A DNA stretch of 64,000 nucleotides from Escherichia coli (GTDB taxonomy: Bacteria; Pseudomonadota; Gammaproteobacteria; Enterobacterales; Enterobacteriaceae). The stretch is from assembly GCF_044324785.1 (NCBI RefSeq), contig NZ_CP172127.1, one strand, 5' to 3'. The first letter of the stretch is position 1. Each line of letters starts with the position of its first letter. The notes under the pieces were generated by a model. It did not search any database. It saw only the letters and a list, made by a program, of their open reading frames with translations, and had not been told where the DNA came from. This document shows, in pieces, positions 35,819 through 41,523 of this stretch. A program made the translations under genes and the position numbers.

Positions 35819-37012
35819 ATGACTAAAGTGACACGCGCAGTAATTGTGGGAGGCGGGATCGGCGGTGCGGCAACTGCGTTGTCACTGGCCCGCCAGGGGA
35901 TCAAAGTGGTGCTGCTGGAAAAGGCGCATGAGATCGGTGAGATTGGCGCAGGTATCCAGTTGGGGCCAAATGCGTTTTCGGCGTTGGATAGCCTCGGCGT
36001 CGGCGAAATCGCCCGCCAGCGCGCGGTATTCACCGATCACATCACCATGATGGATGCGGTAAACGCCGAAGAAGTGGTGCGCATTGAAACCGGTCAGGCC
36101 TTTCGCGATCATTTCGGCGGCCCTTACGCGGTGATCCACCGGGTTGATATTCACGCCTCGGTGTGGGAAGCGGTACTGACGCATCCGGACGTGGAATATC
36201 ACACCTCCACCAACGTCGTGGATATTCGCGAGACAGAAGACGATGTCACCGTTTTCGACGATCGCGGCAATAGTTGGATCGGCGATATTCTGATTGGCTG
36301 TGACGGCGTGAAGTCAGTGGTGCGCCAGAGCTTATTGGGCGATGCGCCGCGTGTCACCGGGCATGTGGTCTACCGTGCGGTTATCGATTGTGCCGATATG
36401 CCGGAAGATTTGCGCATTAACGCACCAGTACTGTGGGCGGGGCCGTGCTGTCACTTGGTGCATTACCCTTTACGCGGCGGCAAGCAGTATAACCTGGTGG
36501 TGACATTCCACAGCCGCCAGCAGGAAGAGTGGGGCGTGAAGGATGGCAGTAAAGAGGAAGTGCTCTCTTACTTTGAAGGGATTCACCCCCGTCCGCGCCA
36601 GATGCTGGATAAACCGACCTCCTGGCGACGCTGGTCAACCGCCGACCGTGAACCGGTAGCGAAGTGGGGAACGAAGCGCATTACGCTGGTGGGCGATGCG
36701 GCCCATCCGGTGGCGCAGTATATGGCGCAGGGTGCCTGTATGGCGCTGGAAGACGCGGTAACACTGGGTAAGGCGCTGGCGCAGTGTGAGGGTGATGCGG
36801 CACAAGCCTTTGCGCTGTATGAGTCGGTACGTATTCCGCGCACCGCGCGCATCGTCTGGTCGACCCGTGAAATGGGGCGGGTTTATCATGCCGCAGGAGT
36901 AGAGCGCCAGGTACGTAACCTGTTGTGGAAAGGGAAATCGCAGGCAGAGTTTTACCGCGGCATGGAGTGGCTGTACGGCTGGAAAGAAGATAACTGTTTG
37001 CAACCACGCTGA
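35819..37012 (+). CDS. mhbM: 3-hydroxybenzoate 6-monooxygenase (FAD-dependent aromatic hydroxylase)
   Basis: 397 aa; Rossmann [19 protein letters not shown] and DG..S.VR flavoprotein hydroxylase motifs. Confidence 0.8.
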
Positions 37013-37073: not shown

Positions 37074-38021
37074 ATGCGTGTGTTACTGGCTCCGATGGAG
37101 GGTGTGCTTGACTCTCTGGTGCGTGAATTGCTGACCGAAGTTAACGACTACGATCTGTGCATCACCGAGTTTGTCCGCGTGGTGGATCAACTGCTGCCGG
37201 TAAAAGTCTTTCATCGCATTTGCCCTGAGCTACAAAACGCCAGCCGGACACCATCCGGTACGCTGGTGCGCGTGCAGTTGTTAGGTCAGTTCCCACAATG
37301 GCTGGCAGAGAATGCCGCCCGTGCGGTCGAGTTAGGTTCCTGGGGCGTGGATCTCAATTGCGGCTGCCCGTCGAAAACGGTTAACGGTAGCGGCGGTGGG
37401 GCGACGTTACTCAAAGATCCTGAACTCATCTATCAGGGTGCAAAAGCGATGCGCGAAGCTGTACCGGCGCATTTGCCCGTAAGCGTAAAAGTGCGTCTGG
37501 GCTGGGACAGCGGTGAGAAGAAATTTGAAATCGCCGATGCGGTGCAACAGGCTGGCGCTACGGAGCTGGTGGTGCATGGGCGGACAAAAGAGCAGGGTTA
37601 CCGCGCGGAGCATATTGACTGGCAGGCGATTGGCGAGATTCGCCAGCGGCTGAATATTCCGGTGATTGCCAACGGTGAAATCTGGGACTGGCAGAGTGCG
37701 CAACAATGCATGGCGATCAGCGGCTGTGACGCAGTGATGATTGGTCGCGGGGCGCTCAATATTCCCAACCTGAGCCGGGTGGTAAAATATAACGAACCGC
37801 GAATGCCGTGGCCGGAGGTGGTTGCTTTGCTGCAAAAATATACCCGTCTGGAAAAGCAGGGCGATACCGGGTTATATCACGTTGCGCGGATTAAACAGTG
37901 GTTGAGTTATTTGCGTAAAGAATACGATGAAGCAACGGAATTATTTCAGCATGTTCGGGTGTTGAATAATTCCCCTGATATTGCAAGGGCTATTCAGGCA
38001 ATTGATATCGAGAAACTCTAA
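37074..38021 (+). CDS. dusC: tRNA-dihydrouridine synthase C
   Basis: ATG at 37074 gives 315 aa ([10 protein letters not shown]...); LNCGCPSK active-site motif; the ORF-track frame begins at an upstream TTG. Confidence 0.9.
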
Positions 38022-38040
38022 AAAACCATAGTGATGTTTT

Positions 38041-38067
38041 TTGACAATGTGTTAGCTCTTTATCAAT
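38041..38067 (+). promoter_or_regulatory. sigma70-like promoter in the IS left end (TTGACA -35, TATCAAT -10 region)
   Basis: Perfect -35 hexamer 20 bp after the dusC stop; the spacer is only 14-15 bp (shorter than the 17-bp optimum). Confidence 0.3.
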
Positions 38068-38069
38068 AG

Positions 38070-38250
38070 GCCGCACGGTTGTTTGGTGGCGTCAAAATCG
38101 CCGAGGCGTTCCCTGAAGGCCGGGGCAGCCCACATGGATGTGGGCTGAGGGCGCGTTTTACAGGGATAATGAGATGGACGCTCCAGATTTTACGGTATCA
38201 AAGTACCAGACTGGATCGTTGCAATACGTCCTGAAAAATTAGGAGCGTCC
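38070..38250 (+). ncRNA. Candidate structured ncRNA (bridge/guide-RNA-like) in the IS110 left end; speculative
   Basis: Downstream of the promoter-like motif; contains a 9-bp stem hairpin cagcccaca-tgga-tgtgggctg (38126-38147) and an inverted 10-mer. Confidence 0.25.
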
Positions 38251-38252
38251 AC

Positions 38253-39278
38253 ATGAAAGTATCAACTCTTGGTATCGACCTGGCAAAGAACGTTTTTCAG
38301 CTTCATGGTGTCGATCATGAAGGCCATACTATTTTGCGTAAAAAACTCACCCGGGCTAAGTTTGTTCAGTTTGTGATTCAACTGGAACCTTGTCTGATTG
38401 GCATGGAAGCCTGCTCATCCAGTCATTATTTTGCGCGATTATTCACCCGCTATGGTCATGAGGTAAAACTCATACCTCCGCAGTATGTGAAGCCTTATGT
38501 GAAAACGAACAAGACGGATGCAGCAGATGCTGAAGCAATCTGCGAAGCGGTAACCCGTCCGAATATGCGTTTTGTTCAGATAAAAACCGAAGAGCAGCAG
38601 GCCGTTTTAGCGTTACACACTGAACGGGGAATACTTATCCGTGAGCGGATTGCCTGTGCCAATAGTTTAAGAGCCACACTTGCTGAGTTTGGTATTACGA
38701 TTGCGGCCGGACAAAGCCATTTAACCCGTGAGCTGCCAGCCATTCTGGAGGATGGCGAAAATGGTTTATCTCCCTTTGTCAGAACCAGCATCTACAGACA
38801 GTCTAAACATATCCGGGAACTTGAAGAACAAGTTAAACAGGTAGAAGAAGCTCTGGCCTCCTGGTATAGAACGCAGGAAGCCTGCCAGAGAATGGCCAAA
38901 ATCCCGGGGGTTGGCATGCTAACGGCCACTTATGTGGTAGCAGCAGTGGGTAATGCCCGACAATTCAGTACCGCAAAGCAGTTCGCTTCATGGCTGGGGC
39001 TGACACCAAAGGAACATTCCAGCGGCGGGAAACAGCAACTGGGAGGGATCAGCAAACGTGGAGATGGATATTTCCGATACCTGCTGGTTCACGGCGCACG
39101 CGCACTTACCGCCTGGGTCAACCGAAACGGCGCGGTTGAGGAGAATTCCTGGCTTCAGGGACTCCTTGAGCGGAAGCACTACAATGTAGCTGTTGTCGCC
39201 ATGGCGGCAAAAACAGCGAGGATCATGTGGTCAATGTTGTCACACAATACTGAATATCAACCTCGGCAGCTCGCCTGA
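38253..39278 (+). CDS. IS110-family transposase/recombinase (DEDD RuvC-like N-domain plus C-terminal Tnp domain)
   Basis: 341 aa; N-terminal LGIDLAKN, GMEACSS, TDAADAEA motifs; C-terminal GLTPKEHSSGGK...GISKRGDGYFR; SD aggag. Confidence 0.85.
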   Translation: MKVSTLGIDLAKNVFQLHGVDHEGHTILRKKLTRAKFVQFVIQLEPCLIGMEACSSSHYFARLFTRYGHEVKLIPPQYVKPYVKTNKTDAADAEAICEAVTRPNMRFVQIKTEEQQAVLALHTERGILIRERIACANSLRATLAEFGITIAAGQSHLTRELPAILEDGENGLSPFVRTSIYRQSKHIRELEEQVKQVEEALASWYRTQEACQRMAKIPGVGMLTATYVVAAVGNARQFSTAKQFASWLGLTPKEHSSGGKQQLGGISKRGDGYFRYLLVHGARALTAWVNRNGAVEENSWLQGLLERKHYNVAVVAMAAKTARIMWSMLSHNTEYQPRQLA

Positions 39279-39638
39279 CACAAGGTCAGTCAATCTGACG
39301 AGGTGCTGAAAAAAAGTTAACGTCCTGGTAGGTGCAGGTGACTTCAGAAGATGGCAAAACAGGTAAGACCGCAGGCAGGATACACCGAGAGGTAACAAGG
39401 GCAAGTTAGCCCGTAGAGGATGATTGGTACCTGCCTGGCGGATTTCATCATGGTTCGGGATAAAAATCCCATCAGAAACCGGATATATGGCTGCACCTAC
39501 CCGTTTTATTACATAACTGAAGAAAGCATTGCATTCCGGGAGCGTCCATATATGTTACCTCGCGCCCGACCCGGTAGCCGTAAGGGATAAGCCGAGGGCA
39601 CCGCGCAGCGGCGATTTTGTTCGCCAGAGCCCGGGGGT

Positions 39639-39670
39639 GCAGGGGGCGGCGGCGATTGGCCGCCCCCTGC
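39639..39670. repeat. GC-rich perfect 12-bp-stem palindrome (gcagggggcggc-N8-gccgccccctgc)
   Basis: Read directly; no flanking U-tract; possibly a REP/BoxC-like host element or IS-associated structure. Confidence 0.5.
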
Positions 39671-39779
39671 GCGCTCCTTGCGCCAGTGATTATATGAAGC
39701 AATGCACATGACAGGAGCGCAACAGGATGAGAGACTGAAATATTCTCGTTATTTTCGGATCTGATGACATTAATTAATT

Positions 39780-39863
39780 TTAAAATATCATCTTAAATAC
39801 GCCAGTCACCACCAGTAGCCCAATCAGGAAAATAATCAATACAGCCCAGAGTATAATTTTCAT
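39780..39863 (-). CDS. yohP: Small (27 aa) single-TM membrane protein
   Basis: Hand translation of the minus strand: MKIILWAVLIIFLIGLLVVTGVFKMIF-stop; below the 60-aa ORF-track cutoff; matches my recollection of K-12 YohP. Confidence 0.75.
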   Translation of the reverse strand: MKIILWAVLIIFLIGLLVVTGVFKMIF

Positions 39864-40086
39864 TGGCGTTCCTTTATTTGTGAGTGCTGAATAAGTATAG
39901 GAAAAAACGAAGTCCTTTGCCGTTATCCATAAACGATTAAGATAAATCGGAAGATATCATTCACTTAGTGTATATTTTTCTGGATATGTCATATTATTGC
40001 CACTGATGTTTTGCCACGCGAAACTAAAAAATATATCGCAACACACGGTAATCTCCGCGCACCTTTTCTTACCTGATTATTCCCCC

Positions 40087-41523
40087 ATGAATCGTGATTC
40101 CTTTTATCCCGCCATCGCCTGTTTTCCGCTGTTACTGATGCTGGCCGGGTGTGCGCCTATGCATGAAACCCGCCAGGCGTTAAGCCAGCAAACGCCTGCT
40201 GCACAAGTTGACACCGCATTACCCACGGCGCTGAAAAATGGTTGGCCAGACAGCCAATGGTGGCTGGAGTATCACGATAATCAGCTCACTTCCTTAATTA
40301 ACAATGCACTACAGAACGCACCGGATATGCAGGTGGCTGAACAGCGCATTCAGCTAGCTGAAGCCCAGGCGAAGGCAGTTGCTACTCAGGATGGTCCGCA
40401 GATCGACTTTTCTGCGGATATGGAGCGGCAAAAAATGTCGGCAGAAGGGTTAATGGGGCCGTTTGCTCTGAACGATCCTGCCGCAGGTACGACCGGTCCG
40501 TGGTACACCAACGGTACTTTTGGCTTAACGGCGGGCTGGCATCTCGATATCTGGGGAAAGAATCGGGCGGAGGTAACTGCTCGCCTGGGTACGGTTAAAG
40601 CACGAGCGGCGGAACGCGAGCAAACCCGCCAATTGCTGGCTGGCAGCGTAGCCCGCCTGTACTGGGAGTGGCAAACCCAGGCGGCGTTAAACACTGTCTT
40701 ACAGCAAATCGAAAAAGAGCAGAACACCATTATCGCCACCGATCGCCAGCTATATCAGAACGGGATTACTTCTTCAGTTGAAGGTGTGGAAACCGATATT
40801 AATGCCAGCAAAACCCGGCAGCAGCTCAACGATGTCGCGGGGAAAATGAAAATTATTGAGGCACGGTTAAGCGCACTTACAAATCACCAGACAAAGTCAC
40901 TGAAGCTTAAACCGGTCGCGTTGCCGAAAGTGGCAAGCCAGCTTCCTGATGAACTGGGGTACTCCTTACTGGCGCGGCGGGCAGATTTGCAGGCGGCGCA
41001 CTGGTACGTTGAGTCATCGTTAAGCACCATTGATGCGGCAAAAGCGGCATTTTATCCTGACATCAACCTGATGGCCTTCCTGCAACAGGATGCGTTGCAC
41101 TTAAGCGATCTGTTCCGTCATTCCGCGCAGCAAATGGGCGTTACGGCAGGCCTGACGCTACCCATTTTCGATAGTGGTCGTCTTAACGCCAATCTCGATA
41201 TCGCAAAAGCCGAAAGCAACTTGTCTATCGCCAGCTACAACAAAGCGGTGGTTGAAGCGGTGAATGACGTGGCGCGGGCAGCCAGTCAGGTTCAGACACT
41301 GGCGGAGAAAAACCAGCATCAGGCGCAAATTGAGCGCGATGCCTTGCGTGTAGTTGGTCTTGCGCAGGCGCGCTTTAACGCGGGCATCATTGCCGGTTCC
41401 CGCGTCAGCGAAGCCAGAATCCCGGCGCTTCGCGAGCGGGCCAATGGCCTGTTATTGCAAGGGCAGTGGCTGGATGCCTCCATTCAACTCACTGGTGCGT
41501 TGGGCGGGGGTTACAAACGCTGA
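40087..41523 (+). CDS. mdtQ: Outer-membrane efflux lipoprotein (OMF/NodT family), apparently intact
   Basis: ATG at 40087 gives 478 aa with lipobox LLMLAGC; uninterrupted frame. Confidence 0.8.
   Translation: MNRDSFYPAIACFPLLLMLAGCAPMHETRQALSQQTPAAQVDTALPTALKNGWPDSQWWLEYHDNQLTSLINNALQNAPDMQVAEQRIQLAEAQAKAVATQDGPQIDFSADMERQKMSAEGLMGPFALNDPAAGTTGPWYTNGTFGLTAGWHLDIWGKNRAEVTARLGTVKARAAEREQTRQLLAGSVARLYWEWQTQAALNTVLQQIEKEQNTIIATDRQLYQNGITSSVEGVETDINASKTRQQLNDVAGKMKIIEARLSALTNHQTKSLKLKPVALPKVASQLPDELGYSLLARRADLQAAHWYVESSLSTIDAAKAAFYPDINLMAFLQQDALHLSDLFRHSAQQMGVTAGLTLPIFDSGRLNANLDIAKAESNLSIASYNKAVVEAVNDVARAASQVQTLAEKNQHQAQIERDALRVVGLAQARFNAGIIAGSRVSEARIPALRERANGLLLQGQWLDASIQLTGALGGGYKR

What the first reader, a model, noticed from the sequence alone, without database searches (positions are those of the whole stretch)
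38022..39720. IS110-family insertion between dusC and yohP with a promoter-plus-hairpin left end that may encode a bridge-type guide RNA
A 341-aa DEDD-type IS110-family recombinase (38253-39278) is preceded by about 230 bp of non-coding DNA that starts immediately after the dusC stop. That left end has a perfect TTGACA -35 with a TATCAAT -10-like motif (38041-38067) and a strong 9-bp hairpin (38126-38147). IS110-group elements are known to encode a structured non-coding bridge RNA in this position, which specifies both target and donor DNA for the recombinase. This interval has no IS in K-12 as I remember it, so this is a strain-specific insertion. The right boundary and the target site are unresolved: the structured GC-rich DNA at 39590-39700 could be the REP-like target or part of the element.
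Basis: partly seen in the sequence, partly recalled or inferred. Interest (0 to 1): 0.75.

Follow-up and report, generated by a model that had tools for sequence, protein, structure and literature searches.

The report
ISEc81 insertion; guide RNA at 3' end

Summary
The 341-aa IS110-family recombinase gene is real (38253-39278). It belongs to a 1386-bp element, 38168-39553, fixed by two uninterrupted sites. The protein differs at 4 of 341 residues from ISfinder ISEc81, an IS1111-group element.

They are present in BL21 and K-12, which lack the element. Only 85 bp of the element precede the gene. They hold the left subterminal inverted repeat and a hairpin that covers the ribosome-binding site.

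The guide RNA is in the 275-bp 3' end, as expected for the IS1111 group. A covariance model built only from about 50%-identical relatives hits the window once, at 39327-39502 (98.7 bits, E 6e-27), and finds nothing in the left end. Target guides GAGGUAACA (39389-39397) and GGAUG (39418-39422) match the two strands of the insertion site. In 20 relatives the same positions match their own flanks.

The target is an unannotated repeat of about 230 bp, present in nearly all E. coli, that resembles TwoAYGGAY RNA below Rfam's threshold. Durrant et al. 2024 already list ISEc81 with a right-end bridge RNA. This is a known system; interest is low.

The parts
38168..39553 (+). ISEc81 copy (IS110 family, IS1111 group), 1386 bp. 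The boundary has a 2-bp ambiguity: AT at 38166-67 and at 39552-53, present once at the empty site.
   Evidence: Empty sites read ...ACAGGGAT|GTTACCTC... in the BL21 lineage and at K-12 lysO-aqpZ. Eleven further copies are all 1386 bp with the same junctions. The Tnp differs from ISfinder ISEc81 at 4 of 341 residues.
38168..38184 (+). Left terminus: 6-nt extension AATGAG plus the left subterminal inverted repeat ATGGACGCTCC (38174-38184).
   Evidence: An 11-bp perfect inverted repeat with 39539-39549. About 30 relatives share the architecture (A/G)ATGGR + ATGGACGCCCC.
38175..38251 (+). 5'-UTR hairpin. The left inverted repeat pairs with a third repeat copy, GGAGCGTCCA (38242-38251), which overlaps the Shine-Dalgarno AGGAG. 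Inferred to block translation of read-through transcripts.
   Evidence: RNA fold -32.7 kcal/mol, z -3.7, 10-bp stem. By my reading of the printed sequences, many relatives have a repeat-like copy just before the ATG that tracks their own inverted repeat; the strict automatic criterion found it in only 7 of 31. The function is inferred, not tested.
38253..39278 (+). Transposase/recombinase gene, 341 aa, with a DEDD RuvC-like domain and a C-terminal domain carrying the GL-P----SG motif.
   Evidence: D9, E52, D89, D92 and G249-L250-x-P252...S257-G258 are invariant in the 5-sequence alignment.
39327..39503 (+). Bridge RNA (long seekRNA) gene, about 177 nt, closed by an 11-bp outer stem GGUAGGUGCAG (39327-37) / CUGCACCUACC (39493-503).
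   Evidence: Model R1, built without ISEc81, hits 39327-39502 at 98.7 bits, E 5.8e-27, over the full model length. On the 21-sequence alignment 96% of cells are paired and 21 of 35 pairs show compensatory change, reached by 0 of 500 shuffles. Single-sequence fold z -3.7.
39368..39442 (+). Target-binding stem-loop: stems CCGCAGGCAGG/CCUGCCUGGCGG and ACCGA/UUGGU around an internal loop with a small hairpin, GGGC (39399-402) / GCCC (39409-12).
   Evidence: Helix 5 (8 pairs) and helix 6 (3 pairs) all show changes on both sides.
39389..39397 (+). Target guide T: GAGGUAACA, complementary to top-strand TGTTACCTC (last base of the left flank plus 8 bases of the right flank). It extends to 11 of 12 matches over 39386-97.
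   Evidence: At the aligned position relatives match their own right flank by 8.0 nt on average, against 3.4 nt for other elements' flanks. The own target is the unique best in 18 of 21.
39418..39422 (+). Target guide B: GGAUG, same sense as GGAT|G, so it pairs with the bottom strand. The variant site ACAAGGAT|G seen in L009 would pair over 7 nt, 39416-22 (my reading of the sequences).
   Evidence: own 6.95 nt against 3.24 nt for others; unique best in 17 of 21. Order T then B, overlapping at the insertion point, is the order Siddiquee et al. 2024 describe for the IS1111 family.
39442..39450 (+). Putative donor guide T: AUUUCAUCA, complementary to left-end bases 2-8, ATGAGAT, with one G-U pair.
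   Evidence: Relatives have AUUCCAUCA opposite ATGGAAT. The C-to-U change in ISEc81 matches the G-to-A change in its left end. Ambiguous: the same bases are also predicted to pair inside the RNA (helix 3).
39483..39490 (+). Donor guide B: AUAUAU(GG), same sense as the last 6 bases of the right end.
   Evidence: This RNA segment equals the element's own last 6 right-end bases in 19 of 21 elements, across 6 variants: ATGTAT, ATCTAT, ATGCAT, ATATAT, ATGTAA, ATATAC.
39529..39553 (+). Right terminus: -35-like TTGCAT (39529-34), right inverted repeat GGAGCGTCCAT (39539-49) and the extension ATAT. Joined to the left end in a circle, TAT|AAT gives a perfect -10 TATAAT.
   Evidence: Read from the sequence and from the alignment of relatives (TTGGCA, 17 nt, TAT|AAT). 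A junction promoter was shown experimentally for ISEc11 and ISEc21, not for this element.
38075..38167 (+). Left half of the host repeat that is the target.
   Evidence: The uninterrupted copy gives Rfam TwoAYGGAY 30.9 bits against a gathering score of 43.
39554..39690 (+). Right half of the host repeat, including the GC-rich hairpin around 39630-39670.
   Evidence: Contiguous with 38167 at the empty sites.
38041..38067 (+). TATCAAT). It is host intergenic DNA, not part of the IS.
   Evidence: Present at the IS-free site. The spacer is 14-15 nt and the scan does not report it.

Best explanation
The interval holds one intact copy of ISEc81, an IS1111-group member of the IS110 family, at 38168-39553.

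Shown here: its exact ends, its subterminal inverted repeats, and its single-orientation insertion into one position of a repeated host element without target duplication.

Shown by comparison with 20 relatives: the 3' non-coding region (39327-39503) encodes a structured RNA of about 177 nt with two guide-bearing domains. In the first domain GAGGUAACA pairs with the top strand just right of the insertion point, and GGAUG pairs with the bottom strand just left of it. In the second domain AUAUAU matches the element's right end and AUUUCAUCA is complementary to its left end.

Inferred from experiments on other family members (ISEc11, ISKpn4, ISPa11, IS621): the DEDD recombinase binds this RNA. 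The RNA bridges the circularised element's RE-LE junction to the target, and strand exchange inserts the element.

Inferred from sequence: circularisation creates a promoter (TTGCAT, 16 nt, TAT|AAT) that drives the recombinase gene and the downstream RNA. In the integrated copy, read-through transcripts fold the left repeat onto the ribosome-binding site and keep translation low.

The promoter-like motif and the hairpin upstream are parts of the host intergenic region and of the host repeat. They are not parts of the element.
For: Boundaries: empty-site alignment, a second empty site in K-12, and 11 copies at 4 loci with identical junctions.

Family. Identity with ISfinder ISEc81.

Subterminal inverted repeats: with the conserved end architecture in relatives.

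RNA: a model built without ISEc81 hits 39327-39502 at 98.7 bits, E 6e-27. Covariation gives 96% of cells paired, 21 compensatory pairs and 0 of 500 shuffles reaching the observed values, while slid controls pair at 27-47%.

Guides: a 9-nt match to the target. In the own-versus-other test, T is 8.0 against 3.4 nt and B is 6.95 against 3.24 nt, with the own target the unique best in 18 and 17 of 21. The right-end guide equals the right end in 19 of 21 elements across 6 variants.

Literature: in the IS1111 family the seekRNA lies in the 3' NCR, with the top-strand match 5' of the bottom-strand match, and is required for circle formation and transposition (PMC11187229). ISEc81 is listed as 'RE / IS1111' (PMC11208160).
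Against: There is no expression, processing or binding evidence for this element; everything about the RNA is comparative.

The B target guide is only 5 nt here, against 7-9 nt in most relatives.

The putative left-end donor guide overlaps a predicted intramolecular helix, so its role is ambiguous.

Rfam 15 reports no family in the 3' end, so no curated model was available as a check.

I did not obtain the closest relatives (ISYen1, ISEch3) as DNA.
Confidence: 0.9

Rival explanations
1. The 230 bp upstream of the gene are the element's left end. A promoter at 38041-38067 would start a bridge RNA of 150-200 nt near 38074 that includes the 38126-38147 hairpin, as in IS110-group elements such as IS621.
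For: The motifs exist in the sequence. IS110-group elements do encode the RNA upstream of the gene.
Against: 38022-38167 is present unchanged at IS-free sites. The repeat containing the hairpin is in 5425 of 5426 E. coli genomes, whereas the IS is in 178. The family model scores at most 5.2 bits in 37900-38400 with filters off. The promoter spacing is 14-15 nt and the scan does not report it. The element has the IS1111 layout.
Confidence: 0.02
2. The 3' non-coding region is not a guide RNA. It would be DNA-level recombinase binding sites or a 3' UTR, and target choice would be made by the protein.
For: There is no RNA evidence for this element. The subterminal repeats show that some end recognition could be by protein.
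Against: Compensatory base-pair changes in 21 of 35 pairs point to selection on RNA structure. The loop segments change with each element's flanks while the proteins stay about 50% identical. Other IS1111-family members have been shown experimentally to depend on this RNA.
Confidence: 0.03
3. The copy in this window is an inactive relic: the element is correctly identified but no longer mobile.
For: It sits at the most common site (95 genomes), so it may be inherited vertically. The B guide matches only 5 nt.
Against: The ORF is intact and this exact protein occurs in thousands of assemblies. All sampled copies are full length, 1386 bp, with intact ends and guides, at 4 loci. The catalytic DEDD and SG residues are present.
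Confidence: 0.1

Closest known systems
ISEc81 (ISfinder; IS110 family, IS1111 group)
   Same: The transposase is identical at 337 of 341 residues. The layout fits the 'RE / IS1111' entry in Durrant et al. 2024.
   Different: There are four amino-acid substitutions (A91T, S154N, W285R, E294K relative to the ISfinder protein). I could not compare nucleotide sequence with the ISfinder entry. In the papers searched I found no description of its target or guides.
ISEc11, ISKpn4, ISPa11 (IS1111 family; seekRNA shown experimentally, Siddiquee et al. 2024)
   Same: Subterminal inverted repeats with a short left extension. A 3' NCR RNA with the top-strand match 5' of the bottom-strand match, the two overlapping at the insertion point. 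A junction-formed promoter. No target duplication. A structured, repeated target, as with REP for ISPa11 and attC for ISKpn4.
   Different: The ISEc81 protein is about 32-44% identical to the IS1111-group proteins shown in the excerpt of that paper's identity matrix that I read (ISKpn4 33%). I did not retrieve its identity to ISEc11 or ISPa11. The target is different. Here the comparative data also point to right-end and left-end (donor) matching segments in a second domain, which that paper did not describe.
IS621 bridge RNA (IS110 group; Durrant et al. 2024, Hiraizumi et al. 2024)
   Same: A two-domain RNA, one domain for the target and one for the donor. Each domain has two guide segments that read opposite strands on either side of the crossover. 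A DEDD recombinase.
   Different: In IS621 the RNA is in the left end, upstream of the gene. The order of top-strand and bottom-strand guides is reversed, the inverted repeats are only 2-3 bp, and the core is CT.
Rfam RF01731 TwoAYGGAY RNA (for the host target repeat)
   Same: Two adjacent hairpins with loops AUGGAU and AGGGAU, enclosed by a long outer stem. The match covers the full model. The family is reported from gamma-Proteobacteria.
   Different: Scores are 30.6-30.9 bits against a gathering score of 43. The second loop departs from AYGGAY. The repeat is about 230 bp and carries an extra GC-rich hairpin.

Membership tests
IS110 family, IS1111 group | DEDD (RuvC-like) N-terminal domain plus C-terminal PF02371 domain with the GL-P----S/TG motif | tested here: met
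   NF033542 at 359 bits. PF01548 and PF02371. D9, E52, D89, D92 and G249-L-x-P252...S257-G258 are invariant.
IS110 family, IS1111 group | Subterminal inverted repeats of 7-17 bp, set in from both ends | tested here: met
   The 11-bp repeat ATGGACGCTCC (38174-84) / GGAGCGTCCAT (39539-49) lies 6 nt from the left end and 4 nt from the right end.
IS110 family, IS1111 group | Short left end, long right end (non-coding region downstream of the gene) | tested here: met
   85 bp against 275 bp, with the ends fixed by empty sites.
IS110 family, IS1111 group | Sequence-specific insertion in one orientation without target-site duplication | tested here: met
   The same junctions occur in 12 copies at 4 loci. 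The empty site holds a single AT.
IS110 family, IS1111 group | Right-end RNA with a top-strand target match 5' of a bottom-strand match, overlapping at the insertion point | tested here: met
   The evidence is sequence and covariation only.
IS110 family, IS1111 group | The RNA is transcribed, bound by the recombinase and required for circle formation and transposition | not testable with these tools
   Shown for ISEc11, ISKpn4, ISPa11 and ISPst6, not for ISEc81.
IS110 family, IS1111 group | A promoter assembled at the circle junction | tested here: inconclusive
   RE ...TTGCAT, 16 nt, TAT joined to LE AAT... gives TATAAT. The TAT|AAT termini are conserved in relatives. No circle was observed.
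ISEc81 (same element name) | Near-identity to the ISfinder reference | tested here: met
   Protein 337/341. I could not compare reference DNA, as no ISfinder access was available.
IS110 group (IS621-like, left-end bridge RNA) | A long left end encoding the bridge RNA upstream of the gene | tested here: not met
   The left end is 85 bp. The family model finds nothing there. Rfam finds nothing.
Rfam RF01731 TwoAYGGAY (host repeat) | A score at or above the gathering threshold of 43 bits | tested here: not met
   30.9 and 30.6 bits for the two K-12 copies. This is a resemblance only.

The most novel reading that the evidence does not exclude
The natural target of ISEc81 would be the second AYGGAY-type hairpin loop of a conserved, unannotated, TwoAYGGAY-like structured repeat that almost every E. 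coli carries in about 3 copies, and which lies in either orientation at the same locus in different lineages. If that repeat is a real RNA gene or a small mobile element, ISEc81 would be an RNA-guided parasite of it, and its insertions would be natural knock-outs that could help reveal what TwoAYGGAY-class RNAs do. In addition, the second RNA domain with right-end and left-end matches would show that IS1111-group RNAs are full two-loop bridge RNAs and not target-only seekers.
Probability: 0.3. Interest if true: 0.4.

Novelty: already known. Interest (0 to 1): 0.2.

Why it matters
It matters little as a discovery. The element is named in ISfinder, and both 2024 studies of RNA-guided IS110/IS1111 recombinases include it in their tables, one of them with the RNA assigned to the right end.

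What this work adds is a correct annotation for this locus: exact ends, guide positions and the target sequence ACAGGGAT|GTTACCTC. It also shows why the left-end reading fails. For anyone wishing to use ISEc81 as a programmable recombinase in E. coli, the guide and donor positions given here are directly testable.

The side observations may deserve a separate look. They are a TwoAYGGAY-like repeat family in E. coli, a hairpin covering the ribosome-binding site that is built from the inverted repeat, and a flank swap between two copies that implies an inversion of about 1.5 Mb.

Tried and rejected
Rfam 15 in E-value mode over 37500-40500 gave only chance hits (AgvB, mir-611) and no bridge-RNA family. 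I therefore built my own model.

A plain MFE fold of the whole 3' end did not use the 11-bp outer stem and was of limited help. The comparative structure was needed.

This was still enough for covariation.

Element L044 was set aside: its flanks look like another copy's ends, which suggests nested or tandem insertion. L032 and L036 match their flanks poorly.

An automatic search for the third inverted-repeat copy before the ATG (10 nt, at most 1 mismatch) found it in only 7 of 31 elements. Shorter covarying copies are visible by eye in many of the others, so this point remains semi-quantitative.

I looked for a shared 2-bp core between donor and target, as in IS621. ISEc81 has AT on both, but many relatives share only T or nothing, so I make no core claim.

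A literature search to name the host repeat (RSA, box C, IRU) found nothing. 'ISEc81' appears only in passing in three resistance-genomics papers.

The NC_000913.3 annotation shows no repeat or RNA feature in the dusC-yohP interval.
Full report
**What is in the sequence.** The window is E. coli. dusC ends at 38021, an intact 341-aa ORF runs 38253-39278 on the plus strand, yohP lies at 39780-39863 on the minus strand, and mdtQ follows. The ORF scores 359 bits against NCBIfam NF033542 'IS110 family RNA-guided transposase' (cut-off 140). It carries Pfam DEDD_Tnp_IS110 and Transposase_20. The protein sequences in the supplement of Siddiquee et al. 2024 (PMC11187229) contain ISfinder ISEc81, which differs from this ORF at 4 of 341 residues. 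The closest named relatives are ISYen1 (68% identical) and ISEch3 (65%).

**Where the element starts and ends.** A megablast of 37700-40100 against 5,426 complete E. coli genomes found the whole interval in 95 genomes. In most others it found the same locus without about 1.4 kb. The BL21-lineage locus reads ...GGGCGCGTTTTACAGGGAT|GTTACCTCGCGCCCG... without interruption. K-12 has the same uninterrupted sequence at this locus and at lysO-aqpZ. The insertion is therefore 38168-39553, 1386 bp. An AT dinucleotide could be assigned to either end and is present once at the empty site, so there is no target duplication. The GC-rich stretch at 39590-39700 is also host DNA. The promoter-like motif has a 14-15-nt spacer and the sigma-70 scan does not report it.

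**Layout of the element.** The element has 85 bp before the gene and 275 bp after it. It also has an 11-bp perfect subterminal inverted repeat: ATGGACGCTCC at 38174-84 and GGAGCGTCCAT at 39539-49. This is the IS1111-group layout described by Siddiquee et al. and by Durrant et al. 2024 (PMC11208160). Both place the guide RNA of this group in the right end. Durrant's supplementary table lists 'ISEc81, RE, IS1111'.

**Distribution and target.** The element is in 178 of 5,426 genomes, at 305 places, 1-4 per genome. Looking up the exact protein gave ten places at four loci: dusC-yohP, lysO(ybjE)-aqpZ, ybaP-copA and yegH-asmA. Every copy is 1386 bp and sits at the same position and in the same orientation within a shared host repeat. 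That repeat, about 230 bp, occurs in 5,425 of 5,426 genomes with a median of 3 places, and is never annotated. As single-stranded DNA or RNA it folds far better than shuffles (z -5.2). The uninterrupted copies give a full-length but sub-threshold Rfam match to TwoAYGGAY RNA (30.9 and 30.6 bits; gathering score 43). The IS sits in the loop of the second hairpin, directly after AGGGAT.

**The guide RNA.** Matching the non-coding ends against the target gave a 9-nt hit. GAGGTAACA (39389-97) is the reverse complement of TGTTACCTC, which is the last base of the left flank plus eight bases of the right flank. To test this comparatively I collected 80 loci encoding relatives of 46-55% identity from Beta-, Alpha- and Gammaproteobacteria.

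- About 30 of them share the end architecture: (A/G)ATGGR + ATGGACGCCCC ... GGGGCGTCCAT + GTAT/GCAT/CTAT/ATAT.
- In about 20 of them a segment roughly 100-120 nt after the stop codon is the reverse complement of their own target from -1 to about +8. It is followed by a small hairpin, and about 25 nt further on by a segment identical to their own target from about -7 to +1.
- At the aligned positions the match to the own flank averages 8.0 nt (T) and 6.95 nt (B), against 3.4 and 3.2 nt for other elements' flanks. The own target is the unique best in 18 and 17 of 21 elements.
- In ISEc81 the B segment is GGAUG (39418-22). It is short here but lies at the expected place. By my reading it fits 7 nt to the variant site ACAAGGAT seen on one lysO-side flank.

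T before B, overlapping at the insertion point, is the order reported for IS1111-family seekRNAs.

**Structure.** The 21 aligned RNAs give a consensus of 35 pairs in 8 helices, and 21 pairs show changes on both sides. Counting on that structure gives 96% of cells paired, with 0 of 500 shuffles reaching the observed values and slid controls at 27-47%. One caveat applies: that structure was derived from the same alignment, so the comparison with the slid controls is somewhat favourable to it. A covariance model built from the 20 relatives only hits the 64-kb window once, at 39327-39502 on the plus strand, at 98.7 bits and E 5.8e-27 over the full model. With filters off, the best score in 37900-38400 is 5.2 bits.

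**A second, donor-matching domain.** After the target stem-loop comes a conserved segment, AUUCCAUCA (AUUUCAUCA in ISEc81, 39442-50), then a stem and hairpin, then AUGUAUGG (AUAUAUGG, 39483-90). The last segment equals each element's own final six right-end bases in 19 of 21 elements, across six variants. The first segment is complementary to left-end bases 2-8. ISEc81's C-to-U change matches its G-to-A change in the left end. The same bases are also predicted to pair within the RNA (helix 3), so I rate that guide as probable only. Together the two domains resemble the target and donor loops of the IS621 bridge RNA, with the strand order reversed.

**Expression (inferred).** The termini ...TAT and AAT... 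are conserved across the family. Once joined in a circle they give TATAAT, 16-17 nt after a -35-like hexamer: TTGCAT in ISEc81 (39529-34) and TTGGCA in relatives. Junction promoters were demonstrated for ISEc11 and ISEc21. In the integrated copy the left repeat pairs with a third repeat copy (38242-51) that overlaps the Shine-Dalgarno sequence (-32.7 kcal/mol, z -3.7). By my reading, repeat-like copies before the ATG track the inverted repeat in many relatives, though the strict automatic criterion found this in only 7 of 31. I infer that transcripts entering from dusC are poorly translated. This was not tested.

**Verdict.** It is an IS110-family insertion with a bridge-type RNA. However, the element is the known ISEc81, the RNA is at the other end, and the features cited for it are host DNA. 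Novelty: already known. Interest: low. The modest additions are the mapped guides and target, and the side observations on the host repeat.

Noticed in passing
window 38075-38167 + 39554-39690; uninterrupted in L001 676-905, L004 656-885 (minus strand), L095 4028-4247: An unannotated repeat of about 230 bp is present in 5425 of 5426 complete E. coli genomes, with a median of 3 copies. It has two adjacent hairpins (loops AUGGAU and AGGGAU) inside a long outer stem. Rfam TwoAYGGAY scores 30.6-30.9 bits, below the gathering score of 43. From memory, and unverified, it may correspond to the old 'RSA' repeat of E. coli.
   Followed up: partly
L003 665-936 compared with L001 684-954: In some genomes with the shorter match at this locus (the group that includes O157:H7, Nissle 1917 and O25:H4 records), exemplified by L003, the same repeat lies in the opposite orientation at the dusC-yohP locus (88.6% identity over 272 bp). 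This suggests that the repeat is or was mobile or invertible.
   Followed up: partly
L009 and L010 (strain SCU-172, CP054353, at about 1.737 and 3.281 Mb); also L013: Flanks are swapped between the lysO-aqpZ and dusC-yohP insertion sites: hcp-lysO | IS | yohP-mdtQ, and dusC | IS | aqpZ-ybjD. This implies a chromosomal inversion of about 1.5 Mb between two inverted ISEc81 copies, made by homologous recombination or by the recombinase itself. In L011 the IS is reversed relative to lysO and aqpZ compared with L005.
   Followed up: no
hits H92-H100: In several genomes the ISEc81 copy matches in two pieces about 1.26 kb apart, with an IS3-family transposase annotated under the match. This indicates an IS3-family element inserted into ISEc81.
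   Followed up: no
window 35819-37012 and upstream: Upstream of dusC this strain carries a 397-aa FAD-dependent monooxygenase gene, and in the matching strain (L010) a glutathione S-transferase gene, where K-12 has yohJ-yohK. This is another strain-specific difference next to the finding.
   Followed up: no
L096 3586-3866 (K-12 ybaQ-copA interval): K-12 has REP-type naRNA4 elements here (Rfam RF02564, 80-89 bits) in place of the 230-bp repeat that serves as an ISEc81 target between ybaP and copA in other strains.
   Followed up: no
L044 (Paraburkholderia sp. CNPSo 3274) flanks: The flanks of this relative look like the ends of another copy of the same element (...CCATGCAT | ... | GATGGATTGGAC...). 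This suggests insertion into a junction-like or tandem copy.
   Followed up: no
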